40,808 nt of DNA, taken from an archaeon (lineage in GTDB: Archaea; Iainarchaeota; Iainarchaeia; JAFGOX01; DATDTB01). The stretch lies in the NCBI GenBank assembly GCA_035291025.1, contig DATDTB010000045.1, positions 1-40,808 of the forward strand. The letters run 5' to 3'. Shown here in pieces: positions 1 to 31,823 of this stretch. The notes below the pieces were generated by a model. The model saw nothing but the letters and a program-made list of their open reading frames with translations. It was not told where the DNA came from and ran no database searches. Numbering within the stretch: position 1 is the first letter of the stretch; every line of letters begins with the position of its first letter. A program made the translations under genes and the position numbers.

Positions 1-3000
1 ACTCTATTTGCGGCCTGCCGCACTGGGTTATGTTGCCCGAGCTGACAAGCGTTTTCTCAATCAATGGCGTGCACGTGCTTCCAGTGAACGCGCACAGGTA
101 TTGTTCCCAGTCCTTGAAGTCGCACGCCGTGCTCGCCGCCAGCAAGTCAACCTGGCTCCCAGTAGAGCCCTCGCCAACAACCGCGCAGCTCGCCTGCGTT
201 TTCGTGGTAAAGCAAGGAGTCAAACCGAGTTGTTCGACTGGCAGTTCCGCTAACGAGTCAAAGCTGGAGACTGGCTTTGAGAGGAACACTATGGTTTTTT
301 GCTTGAAGTCCCTTAACAGGAACGATGGCTGTAGGACGAGGCTCGCGTTTACTTGTGTTTCTTTTCCTGCTTCGAGGACGAAGAACGACGGGTTGAATGA
401 TAATTGCTCAATGCCGGTTTCAGCGAACGAGCTAATTGAGACGTTTACTTTCTCGGTGCAGTCGTTTCTCACATTGAAGGTTGTTTGAGCGAGCGTGCCG
501 CGGTCGCGGTTCGGGAAGGACACGGGCGAAATGAACGAGTTGGTTATGCAGGCAAAGGAACTGAATTCGGCGTTGAACGCTTTAGAGTTGGTCGCGATGG
601 CTTTCCCTCCCAGCAAAGTGTAGGCGCCGTTGGCCGTGATTTTCACGTCGTTCGCGGCGCCGTCCCCGACTTGCCCGGCTTGCGGCTCGTAGCCAACGTT
701 TAAGTTGACAATTTGGCCAGTGTTGTGCTGCAGGGTTCCAATTACTACGTTCTTTTGCCCGTTAGAAAATATTGAATTGGAGAAAATGGTTCCCGCGTTC
801 CCGAAGCCAGTTGAAATGTTCAAGTTGACGTCCTTCAACTCCCTTTGGCACTTGTTTGTCACTTCAACGTCTTTGTATGCGCCGCTCGTCTCGCTTATTG
901 TTGCCTTTCCTTCCGGCGTTATTGTTATTTCAAGGCAGCCCTCTGGTGTTGGCTGGATTGTGGGCGAGAACAGGCTCACTGGAATCTCTGCAGTTATAAC
1001 CGAGGCCTCTGTCGCGGCAGTGAGCTTTAACTGGAAAGTTACCCTTATTTTGAAGTCTTCAGGGTAGGAGTTTTTCGGGATCCTCAAAGTCCCAGTGATG
1101 GCGCCCGCGGTTTCGTCGCTTGACCCAAACGATGCCTTGGATACTTCCAGTTTTTCGACTCGCACGCCGCCCGTGTCGTTGTTGGCAATGTTTTCAGGCC
1201 TTTCCGCGGTCGAGTCCCACGTCGGCGTTCCAATGATCGAGCCAGTGCTGCCCTCGACCGCCGCTTTCACAATGACTGCGATTGGCCCGGTTAGTCCTCC
1301 AGTGGGCAGTTCGTCAACGTTTATCGGCTCCTGCGGCCCTATTGGGATTACTTTGGCGAGGTTTTCAGCCGTTATGGGTATTTCCTTTTCAACGCTCCCG
1401 TACCCAGGGAACTGCCCTGAAACCTTTATGGGCGAGCCCTCGTTTTGAGGCGTTACCTTGATGGAGTACTGTTGTTTTTGGAAGTCCTCTGTCCAGTTCG
1501 TTTTCTCTATTTTTCCACCGGCAGCGCTCAAAAAACTCGCTTTCAGCGCGAGCCCGGAGTCCGCCAAAGGCAGAGTTGTAATCTTGTCGTTAATGAAGGT
1601 TTGCACCACAATCGTGTTTTCCTTTCCAAGCTGGGCCTCTGCAGGGCTCGTTATGAGGACGTCAAAGTTTCCAGCTGCGCGCGATTCCACGTTGAATTCC
1701 TTGAAGCTGGGCGGAGTGACGTAGCGGCTGGACTTCACGAGGCCAACGCTCCACGCCGCGTTTGCAGCGCTCTTTTCCGCCTTTACCTTGGCAGTAAAGA
1801 CTAGTTTTCCGCCAACCGCGATGTCTCCAGAGGCCTTTGAGAAAGAGTTAAGGCTTTGGCCTGTCTTTTCCTCAACAGTCGTTGTCGCCACTCCAATGTT
1901 TTTCAGCGAATAACTCTTTATAGTGAAAGTCTTTTGCTCCTGGTCTTTAATGACGAGGTTGCTGCCGGAGAGCACGCTCACGGTGCCGTGGTAGAAGTCA
2001 AAGGACGCCCCGCTTACCACGGAGGTGCCAGGGTTGCATACTTGGACTTCAATCGAGGCCTCCTCGCCCAGCAAAAGCGTTGGGAATTCGTCGCTCGAGT
2101 AATCCGTGGCGTTGCTTAGCCTTTTCACTTGCCCGCTGGGGTCAGTTATGGTCGCGTAAAAAGGAGCTTCCGGAGTGCAGCCGACTGGCTGGACGTCCAT
2201 TGTTCCAATGACTATTTTCGGGCTCAATTCCTTGGCTCCAGTCAGGCTTGACGCGTCGCACGCGCTTGACTCCGTGGACGTTTCGCCAAAGCACGACGTT
2301 CCAACTTTCTTCCAAGCCTTCACGCTCAATGGAATCTCTGTTCCCTGCTCTATTCCAGCCTTTACCTTGAACTCCAACCCGAAGTAAACTGACTCGGGGC
2401 CTTTCACGAGCCACTCAACCGCGCCGCGCGCCCCGCCCGTTGGAATGCTTGGAACGAAGTCAGACGTGGAACTGAAGGCTACGAAGTGGGCGTAGTCAGC
2501 GAACTTGTTCGTTGCCCCAAGCGCCGCAAAGCCTAGAGAGCCGCCGTCGCTTCCCTTGCTGATTGCCTGGAACTTCAGGCAATAGTTCTGGCCGGAGGCA
2601 ATGCTTCCGCTAAAGGGTAGCTCGTCGGAGCAGTTCTTGTAAACCCCGCGGTAAACTACTTGGGCGCCGTTTGACTCCCCGCTGACGATTTTGTCAGATT
2701 CCTTTAGCGTAATAGTGTAAAGCCCGCCAGAGGCAATCGTGACCGGTTCTGTTGTCACTTCCCTGTAACCAGAAGCCCTTACCACGAACGACCCGCGTTG
2801 TCCCTCGAACAAGAACACAGTCGTTGTTTTCCCGTCGCCCCCTGTCGTGTTTTCCAACGCGGTCAAAGTCCCAGTGGCGTCCTGGAAAGACAGTTGCGCG
2901 CCGCTAACAACGGAGCCGTTTTCAGCCTTGACTTCAGCCGTGACAATTATGGGCGTGAGCTTTAGCTTCAAGGTCACGCTTTTTTGCTCGCCTTCGCTTG

Positions 3001-4480
3001 AAAACTTTATCACTTCGCTGTTTGCGTCGAACTGCGCGTACGCCGCCTTGACAATGAAGTCCGTCCCGACAGGCAAGCCAACGAACGCGGCCTTGCCGTT
3101 CGCGTCAGTTGAGGCGGCGGGCTTGAATGGCGAGGGAGACACTTGGAGTATCCCCTTGACTGTCTGGACAGTGTGCAGCGCAACAGTCGCGTTGGGCACT
3201 GCGAAGCCTTGGTTGTCCGTGACCGAGACGCTGAGCCTCGTCACCTTTGCCGGGTCCACTGAGTCGAGCTTTTCCAGCTTGTAAGTGTAAGCCTTTCCCG
3301 GGTCAGCGCTGGCGACGCTGAAGTCCTTGTAACCCGACTTTGACAATATGAGCTTGTACTTCTTTTGCACGTCCACCGGCACAGTGACCTTGCCGTCGGC
3401 GGCAGTAGTGTAAGTTGAAACGTTGGAAGCGTCGTCAACCGGGTTCGAGGAAACAGTGACTCCCTGCAATGGCTTGCTTTCGCCTTCAACGACTGTAACT
3501 ACAATGGTGCCGCTGGCCTTTTCCAGTTCCACTTTGAGTTGCTGGACTTCGCCTGCCTTTATTGTCACGGGCGCGCTAAAGGTGTTGCTTGACAAGTAAC
3601 CGTCAGCCTTTACAACGACGTAAACCCTCGTCGCCTCCAAGTTCTCGAGCTTGGCGCTGCCCTCGGAGTCGCCCTTGGTGCTGCTTTTGAGGACGCCGCT
3701 GTTGGCTGAGCGGGCTTCCACGAACGCGTTGGGGACCGGCGCCTTTGTCACCGAGTCAGTTATTGAAACTATCAGCGTCCCCGTTCCAGTGGTCGGCGCT
3801 TGCTGTAAGTAAACCGGCGCAGGGTCGCCTGACTCTGGCACGCTGATTAGCTGGCCGTTCTCGGTTTGGTAAACAGCGCCTTCCTTGAATGGGACCTTGC
3901 AAGAGCCGTCGCACGGGTGCGTTGTCTGCGTACCGTCAACGTGTTTTGCCACTATGACCATTTTTCCAGGCGTGCCGTCCGGGTTTAGTATAGTGAACTT
4001 GAGCATTCTCTCAACTGCCACTAAAACAGCGTCCCTTGAAACAGCCTCGCTTCCCGTAGTAAACGTAAGCGAGAACGCCTCAAAACCCTTTTTTTCAGCC
4101 GCAAGAGTGACTTCAGTGTTGGCTGGAACGCTGAAGGAAGCCTTGCCGTCCTCCAAAGTGGTAAAGGAAAGCTTTTCCCCGCCAAAGGCGGCGCTCACAA
4201 AGGCTTCCGAGACAGGTTTGCCCGCGGCGTCAATGACTGAGACATTCAATGAAATCGCCCCCGGAGCCAAGGGGTTTGCTCCAAGGAACAACGCAGCCGG
4301 GACGGCAATGGCTCCAAGGACCAGCAACAGCATTACCGGCATTGAGGGAATGCCTTGGCTTTCAATGGCGTCCGTGACCGAGTAAACGGGGACTCCGGCC
4401 TTGTCCAAGGAGTCAAGCAAGTCGTAGTACTTGTCCTCAATCGAGAAGTACAAGTCCTTCAAAGGGTTTCCTTCAGCCAT
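1..4480 (-). CDS. Giant membrane-anchored surface protein, 3'-truncated by the window edge (>1,490 aa). Short cytoplasmic N-terminus and one TM helix, followed by tandem carboxypeptidase-regulatory-like/PEGA-type beta-sandwich repeats
   Basis: ATG at 4480-4478. Hand translation begins MAEGNPLKDLYFSIEDKYYDLLDSLDKAGVPVYSVTDAIESQGIPSMPVMLLLVLGAIAVPAALFLG... I translated about 1.5 kb from the start and about 0.7 kb at the left edge in this frame without meeting a stop. Repeats look like GTLIVSITDSVTKAPVPNAFVEARS...GSAKLENLEATRVYVVVKADGY and LSVSVTDNQGFAVPNATVAL...DANGKAAFVGLPVGTDFIVKAAY. It is absent from the ORF track because no stop codon lies in the window. The + strand ORFs listed here are short, low-complexity antisense products. 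Confidence 0.75.
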   Translation of the reverse strand, partial: MAEGNPLKDLYFSIEDKYYDLLDSLDKAGVPVYSVTDAIESQGIPSMPVMLLLVLGAIAVPAALFLGANPLAPGAISLNVSVIDAAGKPVSEAFVSAAFGGEKLSFTTLEDGKASFSVPANTEVTLAAEKKGFEAFSLTFTTGSEAVSRDAVLVAVERMLKFTILNPDGTPGKMVIVAKHVDGTQTTHPCDGSCKVPFKEGAVYQTENGQLISVPESGDPAPVYLQQAPTTGTGTLIVSITDSVTKAPVPNAFVEARSANSGVLKSSTKGDSEGSAKLENLEATRVYVVVKADGYLSSNTFSAPVTIKAGEVQQLKVELEKASGTIVVTVVEGESKPLQGVTVSSNPVDDASNVSTYTTAADGKVTVPVDVQKKYKLILSKSGYKDFSVASADPGKAYTYKLEKLDSVDPAKVTRLSVSVTDNQGFAVPNATVALHTVQTVKGILQVSPSPFKPAASTDANGKAAFVGLPVGTDFIVKAAYAQFDANSEVIKFSSEGEQKSVTLKLKLTPIIVTAEVKAENGSVVSGAQLSFQDATGTLTALENTTGGDGKTTTVFLFEGQRGSFVVRASGYREVTTEPVTIASGGLYTITLKESDKIVSGESNGAQVVYRGVYKNCSDELPFSGSIASGQNYCLKFQAISKGSDGGSLGFAALGATNKFADYAHFVAFSSTSDFVPSIPTGGARGAVEWLVKGPESVYFGLEFKVKAGIEQGTEIPLSVKAWKKVGTSCFGETSTESSACDASSLTGAKELSPKIVIGTMDVQPVGCTPEAPFYATITDPSGQVKRLSNATDYSSDEFPTLLLGEEASIEVQVCNPGTSVVSGASFDFYHGTVSVLSGSNLVIKDQEQKTFTIKSYSLKNIGVATTTVEEKTGQSLNSFSKASGDIAVGGKLVFTAKVKAEKSAANAAWSVGLVKSSRYVTPPSFKEFNVESRAAGNFDVLITSPAEAQLGKENTIVVQTFINDKITTLPLADSGLALKASFLSAAGGKIEKTNWTEDFQKQQYSIKVTPQNEGSPIKVSGQFPGYGSVEKEIPITAENLAKVIPIGPQEPINVDELPTGGLTGPIAVIVKAAVEGSTGSIIGTPTWDSTAERPENIANNDTGGVRVEKLEVSKASFGSSDETAGAITGTLRIPKNSYPEDFKIRVTFQLKLTAATEASVITAEIPVSLFSPTIQPTPEGCLEITITPEGKATISETSGAYKDVEVTNKCQRELKDVNLNISTGFGNAGTIFSNSIFSNGQKNVVIGTLQHNTGQIVNLNVGYEPQAGQVGDGAANDVKITANGAYTLLGGKAIATNSKAFNAEFSSFACITNSFISPVSFPNRDRGTLAQTTFNVRNDCTEKVNVSISSFAETGIEQLSFNPSFFVLEAGKETQVNASLVLQPSFLLRDFKQKTIVFLSKPVSSFDSLAELPVEQLGLTPCFTTKTQASCAVVGEGSTGSQVDLLAASTACDFKDWEQYLCAFTGSTCTPLIEKTLVSSGNITQCGRPQIE

Positions 4481-4593: not shown

Positions 4594-7014
4594 TCACGGC
4601 AGCCCATTCGGGGTGCAAAGGTTGGTTCCTCCGGAGCCGATTGACGGTGGAGTGAAGCAGTTAGTCAGCGCTTGGCTTGAAAGCGGGCAGCACGCAGTCC
4701 TGTCATTGCACGCGGCGCCGCACTGCCCGCTCCCAGAGTTGACGCAGTCCGAGTTGGCGTGCGTTACAGTTACTGGGGGGATTCCATGATTGTGGTTTCC
4801 ACCAGTGCTTTGCGTCTGGCACCCAGTATTGCCAAAACCCGTCCTTTCCCAAGTGTTTTCCACGCATAAGGCTTCAGGGTTAGTGTTTGGCTGTCCGGGC
4901 GTGTTTGTCGCGGGAACCGCGCAGTCCGCCAAGTACGCCGCGTCATTTTCAGGCGTTGCGGTACACGGCCCGCCTGACAAGGTGCTGTAGCCGCTGGGGT
5001 TTATTCCTGTCTGAAGCGAGCACTTAGTGCACCGCGCCCGCTTGGCGTTGACTTCCGCGTCGTTTACTACTTGAGTAATCTTGGCTGAGTCTTCCTCCAG
5101 TGAAAGCCCAAAGCAGTAACGCGCCGGTTCGCCGTTTGACTTCCTTCCAACCGGGTCTTCGAGTTTCAAGTAAACCGGCTCCAGCTTCAAGGGCCGCGAG
5201 CACTTCAGGAACGCGCTCCCAGTGCCGCTCGAGTCAGGCATGTCCGAACACGTTCCAGTTGGCACGCTCGTCCCGGAAATCGCGCAGTTGTTCTGGGAAA
5301 AGGGGTTGGTGCAAGTATAATGGTTGGGGTGCCCTGTTTTGAGGCAAGTTGTCTGGAACTGCATTGAACAGCTCGCCTCGCACTCCCTTTTTGCCTTCCA
5401 TTCGGCGACGTCGTCGTTGTCTTCGCTGGAAATGCTTGAAAAGTTGACCTTGCCAAAGGGTGCGCCTGAAAACGACACGCTCTTGAGGCTGTTGTTCAAC
5501 GCCGTCACGCCGCCAGCGAACTGGGACTTTGAAACGCTTTCGCACAGCGTGTTCTGCTGCTCGCATTCAGCTGGCGTGAGGTTGCATGAAGGCGCGTCGA
5601 AGCCGTTCGAGGCCGCAGTCAGTAGTTCTGCTTCGGCAATGCCGCAAACGGTCGCGAGGGACAAGTCGAGAACTGTTTCGCCTGGGTTTTCGCATGAGTA
5701 CTCGTTTCCGGTGACACTTACCTGTGTTGGCGTGTTGGTGCTGTAGGAAATGAAGTCAATCGAATTTCCAACGCCGCTCAGCGTGACTGTTCGGTCGTCG
5801 TTGCAGCCCTTGCTTCCGGGCTTGTTTTCGCAGCTTGTCGGAGCACCTGCGGCTGGCATTTTCAAGGAAGTCTTGCACCCGCACCCGGTTCCGCACAGCC
5901 CTAGCATCACGCCGTTGTTGTAAGGGGTAATCTTTCCATCCAACTGGATTTGCGTGTTGCCCGGGCCTCCCGAGACGGCGAAGTCGTGGTTTCCAAACAA
6001 TGCGTTCGCGTTCTTGGCAATTGACTTGTAAAAGTTTCTAGCGTTCCACCACGCGCCGTAAACCCGGAGTGGGATGTGTATCTTGATTGGCTTTGAGGGA
6101 ATGGCGCTGAAGGTGAGCTTTGTCTCAACGTACGGGCTTGGAGTTGCGGTGTTGAAGCGCGACAATGAAATTGAAGGGCCTTCCACGCGTTCTTTTTCCT
6201 TTACTCTCTCGAAGTGAAGAGCGATTATGAAATCCCCGCCAGGGCAGCCCGTCTCGTCGCAGTCCACTGGGTCGAAGGCGTCCTCGGCAAAGGTGAAAGT
6301 TGCGGTGCTGAACGGGCTCGGCGACGCCGGGCCGAGGACTGCCATGGCTACTTGGTTCCATTGAAATGCTGCGGGCGCGTCCTTGTATTCAAGGAAGTAC
6401 GTCGAGAGCTGCAGTCCAGCGAGGGCGTTTTTCGCGTCTTCAACGGAGTTTTGAACGCTTTCCTGAACGAAGTTAACCATTGTCACGGGCGAGCCAAACA
6501 GCTTTTTCTCGAATATTTTCTTGTCATTCAACCAAATGTTTTGCGCGCTAAGCGCGCCAGTCAAGCCCGGGCACGGGCTGCTGGAAGTTGGCGTGCACAA
6601 TACCATCCTGTCAGTTGAATCGCTTGCCTGCAAAGTGAACAAGCCCGGCGTTGGAAAAGAGTTCCCTGCACCTGGAAGGCCAGTGCTGCACTCGAGCCTG
6701 TCCTCGACCCAGCCAACCTCGTTTTCGAAGTACTCGTTTACTTTCGTTCGCGTCTTGACCATGACGTTTTGGGTGATTTCAAGTTGAACGGATTCAATCA
6801 AGTCCTTTTGCACGGCGCGGCTCTCCGTGAGGATGTTTGAAAGGGCTTGCTGGTTTTGCGCTTCTATAAGGCTGAGGTAGACAAGCATGGTTATCACTGA
6901 GAGGAGGCTGCCGACGGCAACGCCGAACATGAAACCCTTGCCCTTCAGCTTTTCAGGGAGCGCTTCCGAGAACGCCTCCATTCCCTCAAGGGCCTTGAAC
7001 AGTGCGCGGACCAC
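4594..7014 (-). CDS. Large (806 aa) cysteine-rich secreted or anchored protein with a class III (type IV pilin-like) N-terminus; paralog of the upstream gene
   Basis: Long ORF with a GTG start 6 nt after the upstream stop. The N-terminus ...KLKGKG/FMFGVAVGSLLSVITMLVYLSLIEAQ is a basic leader ending in G followed by a hydrophobic helix. I count 36 Cys, all after about residue 100 and most in the C-terminal half. An alternative ATG start lies at 6981. Confidence 0.8.
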   Translation of the reverse strand: MVRALFKALEGMEAFSEALPEKLKGKGFMFGVAVGSLLSVITMLVYLSLIEAQNQQALSNILTESRAVQKDLIESVQLEITQNVMVKTRTKVNEYFENEVGWVEDRLECSTGLPGAGNSFPTPGLFTLQASDSTDRMVLCTPTSSSPCPGLTGALSAQNIWLNDKKIFEKKLFGSPVTMVNFVQESVQNSVEDAKNALAGLQLSTYFLEYKDAPAAFQWNQVAMAVLGPASPSPFSTATFTFAEDAFDPVDCDETGCPGGDFIIALHFERVKEKERVEGPSISLSRFNTATPSPYVETKLTFSAIPSKPIKIHIPLRVYGAWWNARNFYKSIAKNANALFGNHDFAVSGGPGNTQIQLDGKITPYNNGVMLGLCGTGCGCKTSLKMPAAGAPTSCENKPGSKGCNDDRTVTLSGVGNSIDFISYSTNTPTQVSVTGNEYSCENPGETVLDLSLATVCGIAEAELLTAASNGFDAPSCNLTPAECEQQNTLCESVSKSQFAGGVTALNNSLKSVSFSGAPFGKVNFSSISSEDNDDVAEWKAKRECEASCSMQFQTTCLKTGHPNHYTCTNPFSQNNCAISGTSVPTGTCSDMPDSSGTGSAFLKCSRPLKLEPVYLKLEDPVGRKSNGEPARYCFGLSLEEDSAKITQVVNDAEVNAKRARCTKCSLQTGINPSGYSTLSGGPCTATPENDAAYLADCAVPATNTPGQPNTNPEALCVENTWERTGFGNTGCQTQSTGGNHNHGIPPVTVTHANSDCVNSGSGQCGAACNDRTACCPLSSQALTNCFTPPSIGSGGTNLCTPNGLP

Positions 7015-7020
7015 GGGTTT

Positions 7021-9381
7021 TCAGCACCCCCCGCTTTCCCCGCAGGACTCTATTATGACGTCCCTGCCGTTCCTGCCGCCGTACAAGCCAGTCGAGGACC
7101 AGCTCACGGTTCTTGAAGCGCACTCCCGCTTGTAGTCTTCGAGTGCTTCTTTTATTTTTTCCTGTGCGGCCTTTTCCTCGTCGCCGTAGCCGTTCCTGGA
7201 GTCGTCTTTGATGCATTCGCTCCAGTCATTTCGCTTTTCCTCGCACAAGTACTTTGGTTCCTCGCCTTGCTTTACCTGCACTTTCGAGCCCGCCTTGCAG
7301 GCTTCCTTGCAGTCTTCCACGTTTGACACGACTGAAGAGTCGGCGTCCTCGCATTCCTTTTTTCCGTCGCCGTCAGCGCAGCACTCCTTCATGGAGTCCA
7401 GTTCTGTTTCGCAGGGCACGAAGTCGTTCAAGGTCTTTTGAGCCTCCGCGAGTACTGGGTCTGCTTGAATCCTTGAACTGAATGCGACGGGGTTGACGTC
7501 TTTCACGCACGGGTCAACGCCTTGCGGGGCGCATAGCTCGTCAACGCCCCACTCCGGTGGGTAGTATTCTAGTCCCAGCGCATTGCTGACGGAGCTGTGC
7601 GAGCACACGAAGTTGCCTGGGCTGGCGTTGCATTGCTCTCCGGAGCAGTCGCCAGTGAGCGCCAGCTGTTTTTCCAAGTTGTTTATCTTGGCGAGCTCTA
7701 CTTTTTGCACGTTTGCCTGCGCGCCGCCTGGAATGAATGTCACGTCAAAGTAGTAATCCGTTTCCTCCGAGCTAAAAGCGTGGTTGGGGTCTTCGTCCTT
7801 GAATGCGGCGCACATTTCGAACACGCCAGAGGGCCTTGAACAGTAAGTGTTTTCCGGCAATGGAATCCCGAAATGGGGGTCTTGGTCGGGCTTGCATTCC
7901 AGCCCGTAAACACCCCCGATCGCGGCGCCGCCTAGAATCGCGCGCGTCACGCTTGTCGGCAACCCAATCGCCGTAATCAAGTCCATTGCCTTGCATTTCT
8001 GCAGGCACACTTTCTTGGTGGCGAACTTTTGCTTGTCGGGGTACTCGAAGTTGACGACGCGCGCCGCCTCAAAGCCTCCAAGCGCGCCGGGTGCAACGCT
8101 TACCTTGAACGCCAAGCCTTCGGCGTTGCGCGCGTTTTCGCTCACTGTCCAAGCGCCGCCCTCGAATGGGTACGAGGCTTCTTCGAGCTGCGCGAGGGCC
8201 TTGCACCCGGCGGCCCACGAACCGGAACCGCTTTTTATTTCGCTTCCCTTCAACGGCGTCATTTTCCCGTCTTCCTTTAGCGTGGCAGAGGCGATGGCGC
8301 ACATGCTTTCGGCCACGACAAAGCCCAGCCCTACTTCTGGTGTGGAGCAGTTGTACTTCCCTGAAACGCTTAAGGTAGCGCCGGGCCCAAAGGACTGGTT
8401 GAAGGCAAGGCTTCGCTGCGCGCTTACGACGTTGCCGCAGTTTCTTTCCGGCAGCCCTTCACTGGCGACGTCAATGCACTTTCCTGCTGTTTCGTTCCAG
8501 GGGTCGCTCATGCAGGAACACGCGTCCTGCTTGCACGTCCCCACTTGCGGGCCGCTGAACCCGAGCTGTTGGCCCGAGCCGAATAGCTTGGAGCTGTTGG
8601 ACTCAATTGAGTTGAACATTTTCTTAGCGTTCGAGAGCGCCTTGAACAAGCGGAACTGCACGTACACGGGAATGCGCGCGGTTGGAAGCAAGGGTTCTGT
8701 GATGGCCTGCCCCGAGCCCACTTTTTCAATGCGCAGCTGCGGGAGCCTGGAAAGCGTCTCGACTGACAGTTCGTCCAACGCGAGGACAATGAAGAACGAG
8801 CCCTGCGGGCAGTTGTTCGGGGAGGGGCAGCCAATGACTTCGTACGCCTTCTCCCCCTTCCTTCGGAGCTGGTCCCTGACCTCGCTCCAAACCGCAGGGT
8901 CTCCGGGCTGAAAAGAGATGGCGTTGTTGCCCAAGAGCAAGTCCTCCTTCCTCAGGGAAACCTTTTCCTTTAACCTTTCCACTACGTTGTTAATGACAGG
9001 GGAAGCCCCGATTAGTTCCTGTTGGATGAACGCGTCAATGGAATCCTTCCACGGTTGGCTCTGGGAAGTGAACACTTTGACGTTGTCAACGTTCATTCCA
9101 GTCCCGCACCCCAGCGAGTCGAGGTAAAAAGAATACGCTTCGCGCGTGGCGAAAATCACGGTTTGCAGGGCGTCGGCCCGCACTCCCGCGATAACGTCAC
9201 CGAGTAGTTCCTGGCCGAAGGTGACGGAGAGCTGCGACAAGCGCGACTTTTCCATTTCCTGCACGTTGATGACGACCAAGATGCTTATGACTAGGAACAT
9301 TATGCCCACGAGCATGGAAAACAAGGCCATGCCGCGGTCGTTCAAGAAAAAAGAACGTCCAATCTTTAAGCGCCTGCTCAT
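7021..9381 (-). CDS. Large (786 aa) cysteine-rich secreted or anchored protein with a class III (type IV pilin-like) N-terminus
   Basis: ATG at 9381. The N-terminus reads MSRRLKIGRSFFLNDRG/MALFSMLVGIMFLVISILVVINV. I count 32 Cys. It shares blocks with the 806-aa protein: GCPSPNNCPQGSFFIVLAL vs CDETGCPGGDFIIALHF, and IPVYVQFRLFKALSNAKKMFNSIESNSSKLFG vs IPLRVYGAWWNARNFYKSIAKNANALFG. Confidence 0.8.
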   Translation of the reverse strand: MSRRLKIGRSFFLNDRGMALFSMLVGIMFLVISILVVINVQEMEKSRLSQLSVTFGQELLGDVIAGVRADALQTVIFATREAYSFYLDSLGCGTGMNVDNVKVFTSQSQPWKDSIDAFIQQELIGASPVINNVVERLKEKVSLRKEDLLLGNNAISFQPGDPAVWSEVRDQLRRKGEKAYEVIGCPSPNNCPQGSFFIVLALDELSVETLSRLPQLRIEKVGSGQAITEPLLPTARIPVYVQFRLFKALSNAKKMFNSIESNSSKLFGSGQQLGFSGPQVGTCKQDACSCMSDPWNETAGKCIDVASEGLPERNCGNVVSAQRSLAFNQSFGPGATLSVSGKYNCSTPEVGLGFVVAESMCAIASATLKEDGKMTPLKGSEIKSGSGSWAAGCKALAQLEEASYPFEGGAWTVSENARNAEGLAFKVSVAPGALGGFEAARVVNFEYPDKQKFATKKVCLQKCKAMDLITAIGLPTSVTRAILGGAAIGGVYGLECKPDQDPHFGIPLPENTYCSRPSGVFEMCAAFKDEDPNHAFSSEETDYYFDVTFIPGGAQANVQKVELAKINNLEKQLALTGDCSGEQCNASPGNFVCSHSSVSNALGLEYYPPEWGVDELCAPQGVDPCVKDVNPVAFSSRIQADPVLAEAQKTLNDFVPCETELDSMKECCADGDGKKECEDADSSVVSNVEDCKEACKAGSKVQVKQGEEPKYLCEEKRNDWSECIKDDSRNGYGDEEKAAQEKIKEALEDYKRECASRTVSWSSTGLYGGRNGRDVIIESCGESGGC

Positions 9382-11397: not shown

Positions 11398-11886
11398 CTA
11401 GCCGAACGCGCAGCAGTTAACTATTATATCTGCCTGGTCACTTATGGTTTTGCAATAATCCCCTAGAGTTGTATCTAGGGAAAGTTTCTTGCTACCAGAT
11501 GCACCTTCTCCGTTGCTACTGTCCGGTTTGGCGCAAGATGTTGCTATTGCTTTGTATTGGCTGCCATAGTGTGCGCAAAGTTGGTTGGGGCTTGACTCGT
11601 CACCATCACAGTCCCCAATGCATTCGTATATTACCGAAAAACAATCAGTGGTGGCAATCTTTATTTCACTCAAAGGATGCCCCTGCGTTGCGGTCGCCGC
11701 CTGCAAGTTCAAGACGTTTGAGGGGTCGTCTCTGGGGTCTGACGCGAAGAAGACTTTCTTTAACTCCGGCCCGCTTGAGTAGAGCGTGAACGCTGAAACA
11801 GCCAGGACTCCTAGGAAGAAGAAGGCGTTCAATGCCGTCAGGATGGCTAGTTTGCTGCCTTTTTTGCCTTTCTTGTTTTTGTCCAT
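11398..11886 (-). CDS. Small (162 aa) N-terminally anchored or pilin-like Cys-rich protein, paralog 1
   Basis: The N-terminus reads MDKNKKGKKG/SKLAILTALNAFFFLGVLAVSAF. It has 8 Cys and ends in ...IIVNCCAFG. It shares the block KVFFASDPRDDPSNVLNLQAATATQ with the adjacent gene. Confidence 0.7.
   Translation of the reverse strand: MDKNKKGKKGSKLAILTALNAFFFLGVLAVSAFTLYSSGPELKKVFFASDPRDDPSNVLNLQAATATQGHPLSEIKIATTDCFSVIYECIGDCDGDESSPNQLCAHYGSQYKAIATSCAKPDSSNGEGASGSKKLSLDTTLGDYCKTISDQADIIVNCCAFG
11684..11762. repeat. 79-nt block nearly identical to 12242-12320 (copy 1)
   Basis: Hand alignment gives 4 mismatches in 79 nt. The flanking gene sequence has diverged at the nucleotide level. Confidence 0.85.
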
Positions 11887-12968: not shown

Positions 12969-13040
12969 TCATGTAAGCAGCTTGTTTCTTTTTTTAAAGC
13001 GTTTTTTCTCCGCGAAAAAACAAAACAGGAAAAGTGAGAG

Positions 13041-13223: not shown

Positions 13224-13282
13224 TTCCACTCGCTGAAGGGAAAGTAATTGGGTTGTTTTTTTAAAAGGCAAGGGCTCTGCCT

Positions 13283-13600: not shown

Positions 13601-13698
13601 CTGAAAAAACCACCCTTTCACATTGAGATTAAGCAGCAACCTTTAACCGCTAAAAACCGTAAGCAGAACTGCGTGGAAAGGCAATAAATAGCTTTTGG

Positions 13699-15966: not shown

Positions 15967-16170
15967 CATTGACTTTGCGGGCGCGCGCGGAAACGCCCTG
16001 CTTTGCCGTTGCGCCGTGCTTCTTTGATTTAGCTTCGTTTTTGCTTAAAAAGCATTACTTGAAAGTTTCAACTCTTCACTAAAGGCGTGCCTAAGAGTTT
16101 TTATATACCTTTCAGCTTAACGTATTGCGCTCTCATAGTTCCATGGCAGTTGAGTGAACGTGATGCCTTA

Positions 16171-18336
16171 ATGCCCATTTCAAAGCGGTTGGCCCGGATT
16201 TTGGTGAAAAAAGTTGCCAGGAAACTGGCGGTTGACCGCCAGGTTTACGGGCTGACCAGGAAGCCCTTGCCCGAAGAGCTCCCCTTCGTGGGCAGGGTCT
16301 TGGCCGTTCCCGGCGCCCAAGCAGGGCCTTTTTCGTTCGACGAACCCGAGAAAAGGCCCTTCAAGGCGCCGCCGTTGTTTCCATTGGAAGCGCCTTACCC
16401 GGTTCCATTGCCCGCTTTTCCAGAGTCCTTGGAGCAAAAGAAGAACCGCGAGGAGTTCGCGAGGCTTCAAAGGGAAGTCTCTGACTTGGTGCCCGAAGTC
16501 AAGCCCTTGGACGTGGGCGAGGAAGCCGAAAAAGTGGAAGGCGAGCAGGCAAAGCACGAGTTGTCGCAGAGGATTTCCGAGCGCTTGAAGAAGCCCATTC
16601 CAGGAGTCCAGCAAGTTGAAATCGTCGCCCAAGCCCCCGAGTCGACTCCTGTTCGAGTGGAGATGGAGGGCGTTTTGAGGGAAGCCGGGCTGGGGACCGA
16701 GGTAGTGAAGGCCGCCGCAGAACTGGCGCGCGAACTCGGAGGAACCCCTGGGGCCTCGGGCAAGATTACCAAACTTCCAGAGTTAAAGCACGCCTTGCCT
16801 GAAAGGTTTTTGACCGAAATCGAGAGCGCCTGGAAGCCGCCAATACTTACGCAGGTAAACGAGCGCTACTCACTCATCTCGCCTTTCGCGTACGCGCAGA
16901 TTCGCTGGGAGCCCCGCGAGGAAAGCCTTCACTATTACATCATTGAGCCCACGCTGAACGAGGACCAGCTCTTGAAGCTAAAGTACATCAAGGAACTCTT
17001 GTCGGAGTACTTGAACATTAACTTGTACGAAGTCCAGGACGTGAACAAGATAGAGCAGTACTTGAGGGACAAGGTTGATGAGCTAATTTCAAAGTACGTG
17101 CTCGAGCTCTCAGATGAGGAAAAATCCCTCTTGGGTTACTTCATTTCACGGGACTTGCTGGGACTGGACAAGATAGAGCCCTTGTTGAGGGATGAATCAA
17201 TCGAGGACATTTCCTGCATTGGAATTGGGTTGCCAATATACATTTTCCACAGAAAGTACGGGTCAATCCGAACAAATGTCGCGTTTGAGACCGAGGAAGA
17301 ACTAAACAAGTTCTTGGTGAAAATAGCCCAAAAATGCGGCCGCACGATTTCGGTTGCTCACCCTCTCTTGGACGGGTCACTGCAGGACGGCTCGCGCGTC
17401 CAAGCCACTTACTCGAGCGGCGCGGACATTTCCATGAAGGGCAGCACTTTCACTATCAGGAAGTTCACGAAGGACCCGTTCACTGTCACTGACTTGATGA
17501 ACTTTGGCACAATCCCTCCAATAATAGGAGCTTACCTTTGGCTCGCCGTCGAGCACCGCAACTCCTTGCTGATGTGCGGCGGGACCGCTTCAGGCAAGAC
17601 TGTTTTCTTGAACGTGGTTTCGTTGTTCATTCCACCCGAGTCAAAGATTGTCTCCATTGAGGACACAGCCGAGTTAAGGCTGCCGCACGAGAACTGGGTC
17701 CCGAAGGTGGCGCGCGCCGGCACCGGGCCAACGGACACGAGCGGGAGGAGGATGGGCGAGGTTAGCTTGTTTGACTTGCTCAAGGCCTCGTTCAGGGAGC
17801 GCCCGGACTACTTGGTCGTGGGTGAAGTGCGTGGCGAGGAAGCGTACGTTTTGTTCCAGTTAATGGCTTCAGGGCACCCGGGAATGGCCACTATTCACGC
17901 CGAAGACTTCAATTCATTGGTTCACAGGCTGACCACGAAGCCCTTGAACTTGTCTGCCGGGCTGCTGCAGAGCCTTGACGTTGTCTGCTTCATGGAGTCC
18001 ACAAAGGTCAAGGGCGTTGAAGTCCGTAGGGTAAAGGAAGTCGTAGAAATTGCAGGGATTGACTTGAAGAACGACCGGCCAATAGCCAACACGATTTTCA
18101 AGTGGGACGCCGCCACGGACTCCTTCAAGTTCGTCTCGGACAAGAGCTACGTGTTGAACAAGATAATTGAACTGAAGGGAGTGTCAGAGGGAAGCCTGTG
18201 GGAGGAACTGGAAAGGCGCACGGAAGTCTTGGACTGGCTCAGGAACTCCAACACGCGTTACTACACTGAAGTCGCAAAGATCCTCGCGGCCTACTACAAG
18301 GACCCGGAAAAGCTCTTGGAGCGCCTCAAAATATAA
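16171..18336 (+). CDS. Type IV filament assembly ATPase (FlaI/ArlI, TadA/CpaF, EpdL-like secretion NTPase) with a ~250-aa Pro/Glu/Lys-rich N-terminal extension
   Basis: Walker A is CGGTASGKT and Walker B/Asp box is RERPDYLVVGEVRGEEAY. The conserved N-domain begins around YSLISPFAYAQIRW...YYIIEPTL. The ORF track starts at GTG 16087. I prefer ATG 16171 because a TTTTTATATA box at 16098-16107 lies inside the longer version, but the start is uncertain. Confidence 0.88.
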   Translation: MPISKRLARILVKKVARKLAVDRQVYGLTRKPLPEELPFVGRVLAVPGAQAGPFSFDEPEKRPFKAPPLFPLEAPYPVPLPAFPESLEQKKNREEFARLQREVSDLVPEVKPLDVGEEAEKVEGEQAKHELSQRISERLKKPIPGVQQVEIVAQAPESTPVRVEMEGVLREAGLGTEVVKAAAELARELGGTPGASGKITKLPELKHALPERFLTEIESAWKPPILTQVNERYSLISPFAYAQIRWEPREESLHYYIIEPTLNEDQLLKLKYIKELLSEYLNINLYEVQDVNKIEQYLRDKVDELISKYVLELSDEEKSLLGYFISRDLLGLDKIEPLLRDESIEDISCIGIGLPIYIFHRKYGSIRTNVAFETEEELNKFLVKIAQKCGRTISVAHPLLDGSLQDGSRVQATYSSGADISMKGSTFTIRKFTKDPFTVTDLMNFGTIPPIIGAYLWLAVEHRNSLLMCGGTASGKTVFLNVVSLFIPPESKIVSIEDTAELRLPHENWVPKVARAGTGPTDTSGRRMGEVSLFDLLKASFRERPDYLVVGEVRGEEAYVLFQLMASGHPGMATIHAEDFNSLVHRLTTKPLNLSAGLLQSLDVVCFMESTKVKGVEVRRVKEVVEIAGIDLKNDRPIANTIFKWDAATDSFKFVSDKSYVLNKIIELKGVSEGSLWEELERRTEVLDWLRNSNTRYYTEVAKILAAYYKDPEKLLERLKI

Positions 18337-18360
18337 ACGGGATGAAAAAGTGAACCTGGA

Positions 18361-19254
18361 ATGACTTTCGTAAAACAGTACATGCTCTTCTCCTACAAGC
18401 TATTCGGCAAGTACATCCCGCCATACGAGAAGACGTTCACTGACTTGGCTGGGGACTTGGACCGCGTCAGGATCAACGCCATCCTACCAGAGTACATTTC
18501 AACAATAATTGTCAGCTCGCTTTTGTGCTTTTTCATCGCCTTGCCCGCGTTTCACACGATATTGTTCTTGTTCTTGGGTAAAGCCATTCCATTGCTTGCG
18601 GTCGCTCTCATCACGATTTTCGCAGCTGTGACGTTTGGCGGGATGGTTTTCATCTTGCTTTACAGTTACCCGAAATTCCTTTTGTCGGAGTACTCAAGAA
18701 GCATTGACGCCGCGCTGCCTTACGCGGCGGCCCACATGTCAACCATTGCCGGCACAGGGACGCCGGCGCTGTCAATCTTCAAGGTTTTGGCAAACTTCAA
18801 GGAATTCGGAGAGCTAAGCAACGAATGCGGCGACATAGTAAGAGACGTCGAGTTGCTCGGGTTCGACTTCCTCACTGCAGTCGAGAGAACGGCGCGCCGC
18901 ACTGCCAGCGTGAAGTTCAGGGACTTGCTGTGGGGGCTTATCACAACCATCAGGAGCGGGGGCGACTTGAGGCTTTACTTGATTCAAAAGGCTGACACGA
19001 TGCTCGAAGAGCACAGGCGCACGATCCGGGAGTTCGTCAACACGGTCGGGATGTTCAGCGAGATTTACACCACTATCTTCATTGCAGCGCCGTTGCTGGT
19101 AATAATAATGGTTGCCACCATGGCCATCCTTGGCGGGAAGTCGCTTCCAATCAACCCCGCGACGATGATGGTACTGCTTATTTACGTGTTCATTCCCTTC
19201 GGTTCGATACTGTCAATCCTGGCGTTGAAGGGAATGAAGCCGCAAGAGGTTTGA
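18361..19254 (+). CDS. Type IV filament platform membrane protein, single T2SS-F domain (FlaJ/TadC/EpdJ-K-like), gene 1 of 2
   Basis: 297-aa polytopic membrane protein. The cytoplasmic T2SSF-like segment reads AALPYAAAHMSTIAGTGTPALSIFKVLA...VERTARRTASVKFRDLLWGLITTIRSGGDL. It begins 24 nt after the ATPase stop. Confidence 0.8.
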   Translation: MTFVKQYMLFSYKLFGKYIPPYEKTFTDLAGDLDRVRINAILPEYISTIIVSSLLCFFIALPAFHTILFLFLGKAIPLLAVALITIFAAVTFGGMVFILLYSYPKFLLSEYSRSIDAALPYAAAHMSTIAGTGTPALSIFKVLANFKEFGELSNECGDIVRDVELLGFDFLTAVERTARRTASVKFRDLLWGLITTIRSGGDLRLYLIQKADTMLEEHRRTIREFVNTVGMFSEIYTTIFIAAPLLVIIMVATMAILGGKSLPINPATMMVLLIYVFIPFGSILSILALKGMKPQEV

Positions 19255-19258
19255 GAAA

Positions 19259-20533
19259 ATGGTGCAGGCAAAGAAAACGGATGCAAGGAAGAAGGAACCC
19301 CTAAAGAAGGGCCCGGCAATTGACGTTTACAGGCTGCGCTGGATAGTTTCCAAGAACATCTTCGTCTTCCTTCTCGGGATCGGGACCTTCCTAAGCATCC
19401 TCTTGTGGATTATTTCCTTTGTCTTGTTCGGGGTCACGCAGCAGTTCACCACGACTGTACTCTTGGGCACTCTCTTCCTTTACTCGCCGCTGCTCGTGTA
19501 CTTGTACCTGCAGTACTCGCGCGTCCAGGAAATCGAGGAGTACTTTCCTAATTTCTTGAGGGACTTGGCCGACGCCCAGCGCGCCGGCACGACCCTGCCG
19601 AGGGCGATTTACGCGACTTCCAACATTTACTACGGCGCCCTCTCCCCCGAAGTCAGGAAGATGGCGGACCAGATTTCCTGGGGGATCCCCTTCGAGGAAG
19701 TCTTCGAGCGCTTCAAGAAAAGGATCAACAGCGTGCTCGTGCGGAGGAGCATTGACATCATAATAGAGGCGCACCGCGCCGGCGGCCAGATAACGCAGAT
19801 ATTTGACACTGTCACGGCGGACACGCAGAAAATAAAGGAAGTAGAACACGAGCGCAGGAGCACTTTGAGGGTGCACGTTTACACTGTTTACTTCATTTAC
19901 TTTGTTTTCATGTTCATCGTCGTAATCCTTCAAACGCTCCTGGTTCCGTCGCTTCCAGCTATAAGTAACATTTCCAAGATAGTCGGCGGCGGCGGGCAGA
20001 GCATTTCAGAGGAAGGGTTTTACGTTTACCTGCTCCACTTGACAGTTATTCAGGGCTTCTTCATTGGCCTCATCGCGGGCGAGATGAGCGAAGGCAGCCT
20101 GACGGCGGGCTTGAAGCACAGCGTCATACTCATTGCCGTCGGCTTCCTCATTCTGCAGTCAATCGCCGCGCCTCCTGACGCGCAGTCGCGCCTGGTTAGG
20201 ATGATGACCCTTGTTCCGGGTGGGGTGGAACTGGACTTGGACTTGGGCATATATGAAGTGAGGCAAAACATGAGCTCGACTTCCATTGTAGGCGAAGTGG
20301 GGAAAATAATCCAATCAGACCCCTCCAAGACGTACTTGTCTCAAATAGTCGCGGAAAACATCATTTTCGACGACACGGGGTGTAATTCCTGCGGCCGGGC
20401 GACCGCGTTCGTTACCGACGACAGGCACGGATTGGTCGTGAGGCGTCCCGTCAAGCTGCACTTCGCCTTGCAGATAAAGAACTATGCTTACCTGATTTCA
20501 ATGAGGACGCCCGCGCAGGGAGCCGCGACTTGA
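19259..20533 (+). CDS. Type IV filament platform membrane protein, single T2SS-F domain (FlaJ/TadB-like), gene 2 of 2, with a ~120-aa C-terminal soluble extension
   Basis: The T2SSF-like segment reads FPNFLRDLADAQRAGTTLPRAIYATS...VRRSIDIIIEAHRAGGQITQIFD. AGAGGT lies 8 nt upstream of the ATG. The C-terminus after the last TM (from about RLVRMMTLVPGG...) is not recognisable. Confidence 0.8.
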   Translation: MVQAKKTDARKKEPLKKGPAIDVYRLRWIVSKNIFVFLLGIGTFLSILLWIISFVLFGVTQQFTTTVLLGTLFLYSPLLVYLYLQYSRVQEIEEYFPNFLRDLADAQRAGTTLPRAIYATSNIYYGALSPEVRKMADQISWGIPFEEVFERFKKRINSVLVRRSIDIIIEAHRAGGQITQIFDTVTADTQKIKEVEHERRSTLRVHVYTVYFIYFVFMFIVVILQTLLVPSLPAISNISKIVGGGGQSISEEGFYVYLLHLTVIQGFFIGLIAGEMSEGSLTAGLKHSVILIAVGFLILQSIAAPPDAQSRLVRMMTLVPGGVELDLDLGIYEVRQNMSSTSIVGEVGKIIQSDPSKTYLSQIVAENIIFDDTGCNSCGRATAFVTDDRHGLVVRRPVKLHFALQIKNYAYLISMRTPAQGAAT

Positions 20534-20550
20534 AGACTGCGTGGTCGTAG

Positions 20551-31553: not shown

Positions 31554-31559
31554 GAAAGC

Positions 31560-31820: not shown

Positions 31821-31823
31821 GAA

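What the first reader, a model, noticed from the sequence alone, without database searches (positions are those of the whole stretch)
4594..9381. Paralogous ~800-aa proteins with 32 and 36 cysteines concentrated outside the N-terminal region
By hand count the 786-aa protein has 32 Cys and the 806-aa protein has 36. Both counts are even. No Cys lies in the signal or helix region, and most lie in the C-terminal half, including CC doublets (KECCADG, TACCPLS) and closely spaced pairs (GCGC, CSC).
The two proteins share cysteine-free blocks in the N-terminal third (..FFIVLALDE.. / ..FIIALHFER.. and the ..A(K/R)N..SI..N...LFG block), so they are diverged duplicates.
Inference: these are densely disulfide-bonded extracellular domains. 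That would be unusual for archaeal surface proteins and implies an extracytoplasmic oxidative folding capacity.
Basis: partly seen in the sequence, partly recalled or inferred. Interest (0 to 1): 0.65.

Follow-up and report, generated by a model that had tools for sequence, protein, structure and literature searches.

The report
Cysteine-rich pilin-like archaeal surface proteins
The two cysteine-rich ~800-residue proteins are real; they are enlarged members of an unannotated family from tiny groundwater archaea (Iainarchaeota/Diapherotrites) that start like type IV pilins, very probably carry many disulfide bonds, and are always encoded beside giant cell-surface proteins.

Summary
A (7021-9381, minus strand, 786 aa) has 32 Cys and B (4594-7014, minus strand, 806 aa) has 36. 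That is 4.1-4.5% Cys against about 1% in the rest of the window.

Both open with a class III, prepilin-like signal: a basic leader, then [KR]G, then about 23 hydrophobic residues that begin a predicted ~72-75-residue helix. They belong to a family of at least 164 sequence clusters that has no Pfam or NCBIfam model. Named records carrying it are almost all Iainarchaeum/Diapherotrites (DPANN) genomes.

The family shares ten conserved Cys columns, and A and B keep all ten. They add 22 and 26 further Cys, mostly in insertions. Three results point to disulfides:
- 135 of 144 members have an even Cys count.
- Cysteines are gained and lost in couples.
- Haem and iron-sulfur motifs are absent.

The family gene always lies just upstream of a ~2,500-aa surface protein, and a type IV filament ATPase is nearby.

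Not testable here: Cys-Cys distances, signal cleavage, and any thiol oxidase. None of these enzymes is in the window.

Verdict: a new variant of a known kind, of moderate interest.

The parts
7021..9381 (-). Gene A: 786-aa pilin-like protein with 32 Cys (GenBank HLD80813.1, annotated hypothetical)
   Evidence: ORF and Cys count. Family membership. AlphaFold2 model: pLDDT 71.6, pTM 0.70. No Pfam or NCBIfam match.
9331..9381 (-). A residues 1-17: basic leader ending ..NDRG, the putative prepilin-peptidase cleavage site (G17|M18)
   Evidence: A and B are the only ORFs of 60 aa or more in the window that match the class III rule. The family consensus is (K/R)GF(T/N)LFTALV, and 114 of 142 members carry the motif.
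9262..9330 (-). A residues 18-40: hydrophobic N-terminal segment, the start of the predicted long helix 15-89
   Evidence: Hydropathy. AlphaFold2 helix 15-89 with pLDDT above 90.
8542..9261 (-). A residues 41-280: conserved family domain with the invariant C185, C191, G194 and R244
   Evidence: Family alignment A4. All 164 HMMER hits cover this region. pLDDT is 85-96.
7024..8541 (-). A residues 281-786: Cys-rich region holding 8 of the 10 core Cys (C283, C288, C315, C361, C393, C514, C713, C754) and 21 of the 22 additional Cys, the latter mostly in insertions
   Evidence: Confidence is low in the insertions 430-450 and 580-640 and in the C-terminus.
4594..7014 (-). Gene B: 806-aa paralog with 36 Cys (HLD80812.1). 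Its start lies 6 nt after A's stop codon, so the two are probably co-transcribed.
   Evidence: AlphaFold2 model: pLDDT 65.6, helix 28-99, same architecture as A. Core Cys: C252, C257, C374, C378, C395, C457, C484, C605, C732, C775.
6865..7014 (-). B residues 1-50: leader ending ..KLKGKG, the putative cleavage site G27|F28, and the hydrophobic segment FMFGVAVGSLLSVITMLVYL
1..4480 (-). Giant surface protein of more than 1,493 aa that runs off the window. It has a conserved cytoplasmic N-terminal motif, one TM segment, and CarboxypepD_reg and Big_1 repeats. It is the conserved downstream neighbour of the family gene.
   Evidence: Homologous giants follow the family gene in 46 of the 59 fetched loci.
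16087..18336 (+). Type IV filament assembly ATPase (T2SSE / FlaI-like)
   Evidence: Pfam T2SSE 3.5e-28. NCBIfam FlaI model 3e-121, but below its cutoff. A divergent T2SSE gene also lies upstream of the module in L003, L004 and L058.
18361..20533 (+). Two platform-protein genes (T2SSF / TadC-like): 18361-19254 and 19259-20533
   Evidence: Pfam T2SSF 7.6e-16 and 6.8e-15. A two-gene platform is the stated hallmark of archaeal TFF 'system 1', which is found in some DPANN (bioRxiv 10.64898/2026.04.22.720090).

Best explanation
A and B are tandem, anciently duplicated members of a lineage-specific family of type IV pilin-like proteins from Iainarchaeota/Diapherotrites (DPANN archaea).

**Proposed mechanism (inferred)**
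1. Each protein is made with a class III signal: a short basic leader, then [KR]-G, then about 23 hydrophobic residues.
2. A prepilin peptidase is expected to cut after the Gly.
3. The hydrophobic helix then holds the protein in the membrane, or in a short type IV filament built by the nearby ATPase and its two platform proteins.
4. The large head domain faces outward.

**The head domain.** It has a fold with no match in the structure libraries searched. Five family-wide cysteine pairs probably hold it together as disulfides. In A and B a further 11 and 13 lineage-specific pairs, mostly in inserted segments, would add to this.

**Likely role (inferred).** The gene is always encoded directly upstream of a ~2,500-aa membrane-anchored surface protein, and usually between two such giants. 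The most likely role is therefore a minor-pilin, adaptor or adhesin component of a surface apparatus that works together with the giant proteins.

**Shown here:** the sequence features, the family, the Cys conservation and coupling, and the synteny.

**Inferred:** cleavage, filament incorporation, actual disulfide formation, and the functional link to the giants.
For: **Class III signal**
- A and B are the only ORFs in the window that match a [KR][GA]+hydrophobic rule. In related loci only the family member matches.
- 114 of 142 family members carry (K/R)(G/A)x(S/T/N)(L/M)F(S/T) in the first 60 aa.
- F6, L8, F9, T10, A11 and L12 are invariant among 13 typical members.
- AlphaFold2 predicts a 72-75-residue N-terminal helix followed by an alpha/beta domain in both proteins.

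**Family**
- 164 cluster representatives reach E<=1e-3 and 83 reach E<=1e-10.
- No Pfam or NCBIfam model matches.
- The genome scan gave 54 loci. Where the record names a lineage it is almost always Iainarchaeum or Diapherotrites, including Ca. Forterrea.
- A's closest named homolog is a hypothetical protein from a Diapherotrites archaeon.

**Disulfides**
- Ten conserved Cys columns are shared by A and B.
- 135 of 144 members have an even Cys count, P 5e-30.
- C361 and C393 are present or absent together: 77 both, 62 neither, 5 exceptions.
- The median best-partner Jaccard index of variable Cys columns is 0.69, against 0.14-0.29 for W, H, M, Y and F.
- 20 of A's 32 Cys are invariant in its clade, against 119 of 754 other residues.
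- No CxxCH motif, one CxxC in total, and 3 and 8 His.

**Context**
- The A-B gap is 6 nt.
- The order giant1 -> member -> giant2 (-> giant3) recurs across the fetched loci.
- T2SSE plus two T2SSF genes lie 6.7 kb away in the window. T2SSE also flanks the module in L003, L004 and L058.
- The giants' ectodomains have an even Cys count in 40 of 49 cases.
Against: - No sequence or structural similarity to any known pilin was detected. Pfam N_methyl gave nothing for A or B, and one of 13 typical members reached only E 0.17. A PDB profile search was empty. Foldseek found no hit at E<=1e-3. hhalign against PilA aligned only 10 columns at 5.5% probability.
- No prepilin peptidase gene lies in the window or in the fetched flanks.
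- No small major pilin was recognised beside the genes.
- The ATPase is separated from A and B by nine unrelated-looking genes in the window.
- Cys-Cys distances in the models could not be inspected, and model confidence is low exactly in the Cys-rich insertions.
- Only 12 of B's 36 Cys are conserved in its nearest homolog.
- No thiol oxidase was found.
Confidence: 0.6

Rival explanations
1. A and B are ordinary uncleaved signal-anchor (type II) membrane proteins. The KGF..LFTAL motif is only a conserved membrane anchor. The proteins never enter a type IV filament pathway and act independently as disulfide-rich co-receptors or chaperones for the neighbouring giant proteins.
For: - No homology to known pilins was found in sequence or fold.
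- No peptidase gene is nearby.
- The tightest conserved linkage is to the giant proteins, not to the ATPase.
Against: - The residues around the putative cleavage site are far more conserved than a simple anchor needs. F6, L8, F9, T10, A11 and L12 are invariant in typical members.
- The motif resembles the bacterial G|FTLIE prepilin site (established knowledge; aligned).
- TFF ATPase and platform genes are present in the window and beside the module in three loci.
Confidence: 0.25
2. The cysteines are not mainly intramolecular disulfides. In the anoxic groundwater habitat they stay reduced, or they form intermolecular cross-links with the giant proteins or with each other to build a covalently linked surface lattice.
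For: - No DsbA, VKOR or thioredoxin gene lies in the window or flanks.
- P0025, the nearest homolog of B, has an odd number of Cys, 21.
- 9 of the 49 giants have an odd count.
Against: - The strong even-number bias (135 of 144) and the coupled gain and loss of specific Cys columns are what intramolecular pairs predict.
- Conserved short loops such as C185-x5-C191 are typical of local disulfides.
Confidence: 0.1
3. The cysteines bind metals, as iron-sulfur clusters, zinc or haem c.
For: High Cys density alone, plus one CxxC motif in B.
Against: - No CxxCH motif is present, and A has no CxxC.
- A has only 3 His and B only 8.
- No Pfam metal-binding domain matches.
- The location is extracytoplasmic.
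- Spacing is irregular and there are no internal repeats.
Confidence: 0.03

Closest known systems
Archaeal type IV pilins and other class III signal-peptide proteins (TFF superfamily substrates, such as Epd, Aap and Ups pilins and minor pilins)
   Same: - A short basic leader ends in [KR]-G directly before a ~23-residue hydrophobic helix.
- A long N-terminal helix carries a globular head.
- A FlaI/PilB-type ATPase and TadC-type platform genes lie in the neighbourhood. Two platform genes match what is described for TFF system 1 in some DPANN (10.64898/2026.04.22.720090).
   Different: - These proteins are 3-6 times larger than major pilins.
- The head domain has no detectable sequence or fold similarity to any pilin.
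- The conserved partner is a giant surface protein rather than a set of small pilins.
- No peptidase gene is seen locally.
[quoted passage not shown]
   Same: - A pilin-like N-terminus is fused to a large extra domain.
- They occur at one or two copies per system.
- They are often disulfide-stabilised.
- They have proposed tip, adaptor or adhesin roles.
   Different: - No homology was detected.
- The conserved Glu5 is replaced: the site reads G|F(T/N)LFT rather than G|FTLIE.
- The context is archaeal, without the other minor pilins.
Cysteine-rich components of Thermoproteales type IV pilus loci (Makarova, Koonin and Albers 2016, PMC4858521)
   Same: - Class III signal proteins and large accessory proteins in T4P loci carry multiple conserved Cys predicted to form disulfide bridges.
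- Large putative adhesins sit in the same loci.
   Different: - The lineage is different: hyperthermophilic Thermoproteota versus mesophilic groundwater DPANN.
- The families are unrelated.
- Here Cys density reaches 4-4.5%.
Sulfolobus bindosome substrates (sugar-binding proteins with class III signals, assembled by BasEF)
   Same: - Large (~500-600 aa) non-filament proteins use a class III signal and a dedicated TFF-type ATPase.
- The window ATPase hits the BasE model at 2.8e-55.
   Different: - No solute-binding domain is present.
- The ATPase scores far better on FlaI-type models.
- The partners are giant surface proteins, not ABC transporters.
Pilin folding by thiol-disulfide oxidoreductase/VKOR in CPR bacteria (Meheust et al. 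2019, PMC6744442)
   Same: Ultra-small, probably symbiotic groundwater organisms in which pilus proteins are proposed to need extracytoplasmic disulfide formation.
   Different: The CPR case is bacterial and the oxidoreductase was identified. Here no oxidase has been found yet.

Membership tests
Type IV pilin-like / class III signal-peptide proteins | Short positively charged leader ending in [KR]-[GA] immediately before the hydrophobic segment | tested here: met
   A reads ..NDRG|MALFSMLVG and B reads ..KGKG|FMFGVAVG. They are the only such ORFs in the window. 114 of 142 family members carry the motif.
Type IV pilin-like / class III signal-peptide proteins | Uncharged hydrophobic N-terminal stretch of 20 or more residues that begins a long alpha-1 helix carrying a globular head | tested here: met
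   Hydropathy. AlphaFold2 helices 15-89 (A) and 28-99 (B) with pLDDT above 90, followed by an alpha/beta domain.
Type IV pilin-like / class III signal-peptide proteins | Processing by a prepilin peptidase (PibD/FlaK/EppA) encoded in the genome | not testable with these tools
   No peptidase-like ORF lies in the window or in the 59 fetched loci by motif scan. The rest of the genome is not available.
Type IV pilin-like / class III signal-peptide proteins | Genomic association with a TFF ATPase and platform protein | tested here: met
   T2SSE plus two T2SSF genes lie at 16087-20533, 6.7 kb from A. T2SSE is adjacent to the module in L003, L004 and L058. In most loci the 10-kb flank ends before this could be seen.
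Type IV pilin-like / class III signal-peptide proteins | Detectable homology, in sequence profile or fold, to a known pilin family | tested here: not met
   Pfam and NCBIfam give nothing for A or B; one of 13 typical members matched N_methyl at E 0.17. PDB profile search empty. Foldseek gives no hit at E<=1e-3. hhalign against PilA gives 5.5% probability.
Type IV pilin-like / class III signal-peptide proteins | Assembly into, or at the tip of, a filament | not testable with these tools
   Needs microscopy or biochemistry.
Disulfide-bonded exported proteins | Even number of Cys in the exported part, as a bias across homologs | tested here: met
   A has 32 and B has 36. 135 of 144 members are even, P 5e-30. 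The window's cytoplasmic proteins split about 8 even to 10 odd.
Disulfide-bonded exported proteins | Cys positions conserved, and gained or lost in pairs | tested here: met
   Ten core columns. C361/C393 are coupled, Fisher 1e-34. Best-partner Jaccard is 0.69 against at most 0.29 for control residues. 20 of 32 Cys are invariant in the A clade. The signal is weaker for B's extra Cys (12 of 36).
Disulfide-bonded exported proteins | Paired Cys at disulfide distance in a structure | not testable with these tools
Disulfide-bonded exported proteins | Extracytoplasmic thiol oxidase (DsbA/DsbB, VKOR, MdbA-like) in the genome | tested here: inconclusive
   None among the window's genes and none in the fetched loci by CxxC motif. 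Only 40 kb of the genome is in hand.
Metal- or haem-binding Cys proteins | CxxCH, CxxCxxC or paired CxxC motifs with His ligands | tested here: not met
   No CxxCH. A has no CxxC and B has one. His counts are 3 and 8.
Archaeosortase substrates | C-terminal sorting motif, then a TM helix, then a basic tail | tested here: not met
   A ends ..IIESCGESGGC and B ends ..NLCTPNGLP, with no C-terminal hydrophobic segment.

The most novel reading that the evidence does not exclude
The ten-Cys pilin-like family, two or three ~2,300-3,000-aa membrane-anchored giants, a small archaeosortase-family protein and a type IV filament ATPase may together form an undescribed surface apparatus found across Iainarchaeota. 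In it the pilin-like protein would be the main or only substrate of the filament machinery. It would tether or present the giant adhesins, for example for attachment to hosts or to particles. Its dense disulfides would also mean that an anaerobic DPANN archaeon has an unrecognised route for extracytoplasmic disulfide formation.
Probability: 0.25. Interest if true: 0.7.

Novelty: new variant of a known kind. Interest (0 to 1): 0.5.

Why it matters
- **How DPANN cells use their surface.** DPANN archaea are thought to live by surface contact with other cells, yet almost none of their lineage-specific surface proteins has a proposed role.
- **A concrete module to test.** This work assigns a conserved, unannotated family to the type IV filament world. 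It links the family to giant surface proteins in a fixed gene order found in nearly all fetched loci.
- **A question about disulfide formation.** Sequence evidence indicates that exported proteins of this lineage are systematically disulfide-bonded. That raises the question of which enzyme makes the bonds in an anaerobe with a reduced genome.
- **Possibly a new fold.** The head-domain fold has no match in the PDB, so a solved structure could define a new fold.

Tried and rejected
- **Word-index homolog searches.** Searches with A, with B and with the 144-sequence alignment found nothing beyond B's own cluster. Only the exhaustive HMMER search revealed the family.
- **Family libraries and PDB sequences.** Pfam and NCBIfam on A, B and 13 typical members gave no family. 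PDB sequence searches with A, B and the family profile gave only chance-level hits.
- **Fold searches.** Foldseek of both models against the PDB, and of A against viral models, gave no hit at E<=1e-3.
- **Metagenome scan for more A-like relatives.** None was found.
- **First genome scan.** A 13-sequence alignment worked.
- **Bacterial promoter and terminator scan.** Uninformative for an archaeon.
- **Metal- or haem-binding reading.** Rejected on motif grounds.
- **Internal-repeat origin of the extra cysteines.** Rejected, because no self-similarity was found.
- **Archaeosortase-substrate reading for A and B.** Rejected, because there is no C-terminal signal.
- **Motif scans for a prepilin peptidase or a thioredoxin-like oxidase.** Nothing found in the window or loci.
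Full report
**1.

- The minus strand carries two adjacent ORFs. A is 7021-9381 (786 aa) and B is 4594-7014 (806 aa). B starts 6 nt after A's stop codon.
- A script counted 32 Cys in A and 36 in B. The first Cys is at residue 92 in A and 109 in B. In A 66% of the Cys lie in the C-terminal half, and in B 75%.
- All quoted motifs and shared blocks are present.
- Cys frequency is 4.07% in A and 4.47% in B, against 1.04% in the other 32 predicted proteins of the window. Binomial P is 1.6e-10 and 8.6e-13.
- BLASTP links A and B only over the N-terminal third, at 20% identity and E 2e-10.

**2. The N-termini look like prepilin signals**

- A begins MSRRLKIGRSFFLNDRG|MALFSMLVGIMFLVISILVV. B begins ...EKLKGKG|FMFGVAVGSLLSVITMLVYL.
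- Each has a basic leader ending in [KR]-G, followed by an uncharged hydrophobic stretch.
- I applied a simple class III rule to every ORF of 60 aa or more in the window. Only A and B matched.
- AlphaFold2 predicts one long helix in each protein, 15-89 in A and 28-99 in B, with pLDDT above 90. An alpha/beta domain follows.

**3. A and B belong to a large unannotated family**

- Word-index searches found nothing beyond B's own cluster.
- An exhaustive HMMER search of 1.84 billion representatives used a profile of full-length A plus the N-terminal third of B. It returned 164 proteins at E<=1e-3 and 83 at E<=1e-10.
- Most hits are 350-620 aa long and match A over residues ~13-300.
- Two proteins cover most of A: P0021 (735 aa) and P0022 (836 aa). 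They are ~30% identical to A and have 30 Cys each.
- P0025 (573 aa, 21 Cys) is the nearest relative of B.
- Of 142 members, 114 carry the motif (K/R)(G/A)x(S/T/N)(L/M)F(S/T) near the N-terminus.
- The family consensus is KGF(T/N)LFTALVxFxLI. From established knowledge, this resembles the bacterial prepilin site G|FTLIE, without the Glu.
- Neither Pfam nor NCBIfam has a model that matches A, B or 13 typical members.
- A scan of one genome per species found 54 loci. Where the record names a lineage it is almost always Candidatus Iainarchaeum or Diapherotrites, including the complete genome of Ca. Forterrea multitransposorum. Many other records say only 'archaeon'.
- One locus is labelled Micrarchaeota. 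Two are labelled Chloroflexota and are probably mis-binned.
- Sources call the proteins 'hypothetical'.
- The window itself is a contig of an 'archaeon' MAG (HLD80812.1 and HLD80813.1).

**4. The cysteines behave like disulfide partners**

- In the 144-sequence alignment ten Cys columns are conserved. In A they are C185, C191, C283, C288, C315, C361, C393, C514, C713 and C754. In B they are C252, C257, C374, C378, C395, C457, C484, C605, C732 and C775.
- A and B are therefore homologous along their whole length. They keep the full core and add 22 and 26 extra Cys, mostly in insertions.
- 135 of 144 members have an even Cys number (P 5e-30).
- 71 members have all ten core Cys. 36 members lack exactly C361 and C393. 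Those two columns co-occur in 77 sequences, are both absent in 62, and disagree in 5 (Fisher 1e-34).
- For all variable Cys columns the median best-partner Jaccard index is 0.69, and 48% reach 0.8 or more. For W, H, M, Y and F columns the median is 0.14-0.29.
- Reciprocal couples include C92-C524, C361-C393, C463-C579, C514-C754 and C668-C695 (A numbering).
- In the A clade 20 of 32 Cys are invariant, against 119 of 754 other residues (odds ratio 8.9, P 9e-9).
- For B against P0025 the figures are 12 of 36 against 135 of 770 (P 0.025). Many of B's extra Cys are therefore recent.
- There is no CxxCH motif, a single CxxC in the two proteins together, only 3 and 8 His, and no internal repeats. 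That argues against haem or metal clusters.
- Cys-Cys distances could not be checked, because the model coordinates are not exposed.

**5. The gene neighbourhood is strikingly conserved**

- Downstream of B, on the same strand, an ORF of more than 1,493 aa runs off the window. It has one TM segment, CarboxypepD_reg repeats and a Big_1 domain.
- In 46 of the 59 fetched loci the family gene is followed by a homologous giant of ~2,300-2,700 aa. It is usually preceded by another giant of ~2,400-2,950 aa, and a third often follows.
- The giants share a cytoplasmic N-terminal motif, LEDKYYxxLDxLDxKGIPVY..IExxGIPSFP, followed by one TM segment.
- Their ectodomains have about 1% Cys, with an even count in 40 of 49 cases (P 9e-6).
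- In the window, and in L001, the single family gene is replaced by an A-like plus B-like tandem pair, and no upstream giant is seen.
- A TFF ATPase and two platform genes lie at 16087-20533 in the window. A divergent T2SSE gene flanks the module in L003, L004 and L058.
- A two-gene platform is described for archaeal TFF system 1, which occurs in some DPANN (bioRxiv 10.64898/2026.04.22.720090).

**6. Fold and comparison with known proteins**

- Model confidence is moderate: pLDDT 71.6 for A and 65.6 for B. It is high in the conserved core and low in the Cys-rich insertions.
- Foldseek found no match at E<=1e-3 in the PDB or in BFVD.
- Sequence profiles found nothing in the PDB.
- hhalign against P. 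aeruginosa PilA aligned only the ten residues around the cleavage motif.
- The proteins therefore meet the signal, helix and context criteria for pilin-like proteins, but fail the homology criterion.
- Cys-rich class III proteins and large adhesins in archaeal T4P loci have been described for Thermoproteales (PMC4858521).
- Disulfide-dependent pilin folding has been proposed for CPR bacteria (PMC6744442).
- My literature searches found no paper describing this family or this module.

**7. Interpretation**

- The best reading is a class III-signal, pilin-like protein. Its large outward-facing head would be stabilised by five ancestral disulfides, plus 11 (A) or 13 (B) lineage-specific ones. It would work with the adjacent giant surface proteins and a type IV filament machinery.
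- Confidence differs by step:
  - extracytoplasmic and disulfide-rich: about 0.8;
  - processed as a prepilin: about 0.65;
  - adaptor or adhesin role with the giants: about 0.4.
- The main rival is an uncleaved signal-anchor protein unrelated to the filament machinery.
The 40-kb window and the fetched flanks hold no recognisable thiol oxidase or prepilin peptidase.

**8. Verdict**

- It is a new variant of a known kind: a pilin-like class III protein with a novel Cys-rich head and a fixed partnership with giant surface proteins.
- It is restricted to a poorly known DPANN lineage.
- Interest is moderate (0.5).

Noticed in passing
window 11398-11886 (-) and 11923-12447 (-): Two tandem paralogous small proteins (162 and 174 aa) have an N-terminal hydrophobic anchor and 8 and 10 Cys (4.9% and 5.8%). 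They share the block ELKKVFFASDPRDDPSNVLNLQAATATQ, and both end in ..CC(A/G)(F/L)(G/P). They have no Pfam or NCBIfam match and no homolog in the 59 fetched loci. They are further even-Cys exported proteins in the same organism, and possibly small pilins with an atypical signal.
   Followed up: partly
L003:287-928, L058:2398-2988, L015:1014-1502, L032:1280-1774 and 7 other loci: A 160-215-aa exosortase/archaeosortase-family membrane protein sits just upstream of the first giant gene in related Iainarchaeota loci. It scores 31-37 bits on TIGR04178 (cutoff 23) and has conserved LCTG, NxxRI and THDxLFR motifs. None is in the window. The giants lack a C-terminal sorting signal, so its substrate is unknown.
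   Followed up: partly
window 1-4480 (-) and giants in L003-L058: The giant surface proteins (2,200-3,100 aa) share a conserved cytoplasmic N-terminal motif, LEDKYYxxLDxLDxKGIPVYxxxDxIExxGIPSFP, followed by a single TM segment. The downstream giants often end with a ..VCxxxxxxxxLxWN.. motif. Their ectodomain Cys counts are even in 40 of 49.
   Followed up: partly
window 16087-20904 (+): A type IV filament gene set: a FlaI-like ATPase with a long low-complexity N-terminal extension (~260 aa), two TadC-like platform genes, and then a DUF192 gene. No pilin gene is recognisable directly beside them.
   Followed up: partly
window 29351-39119 (-): A near-complete alpha-aminoadipate lysine biosynthesis cluster: an M20 LysK-like peptidase, LysJ aminotransferase, LysZ kinase, LysY dehydrogenase, LysX ATP-grasp ligase, homoisocitrate dehydrogenase, homocitrate synthase, and the large and small homoaconitase subunits. 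This is notable biosynthetic capacity for a DPANN-type archaeon.
   Followed up: no
window 12492-14967 (-): Three cysteine-free, highly charged proteins (158, 118 and 422 aa, the last two Lys/Glu/Arg-rich and probably coiled-coil) have no family match. They lie between the small Cys-rich genes and the UPP synthase gene.
   Followed up: no
L026 (DAOWAC010000014.1) and L028 (JAFCCG010000048.1): Two contigs deposited as Chloroflexota MAGs carry the archaeal pilin-like gene, and L026 also the downstream giant gene. They are probably mis-binned.
   Followed up: no
window 40203-40796 (-): A KaiC-family ATPase fragment lies at the right end of the window.
   Followed up: no
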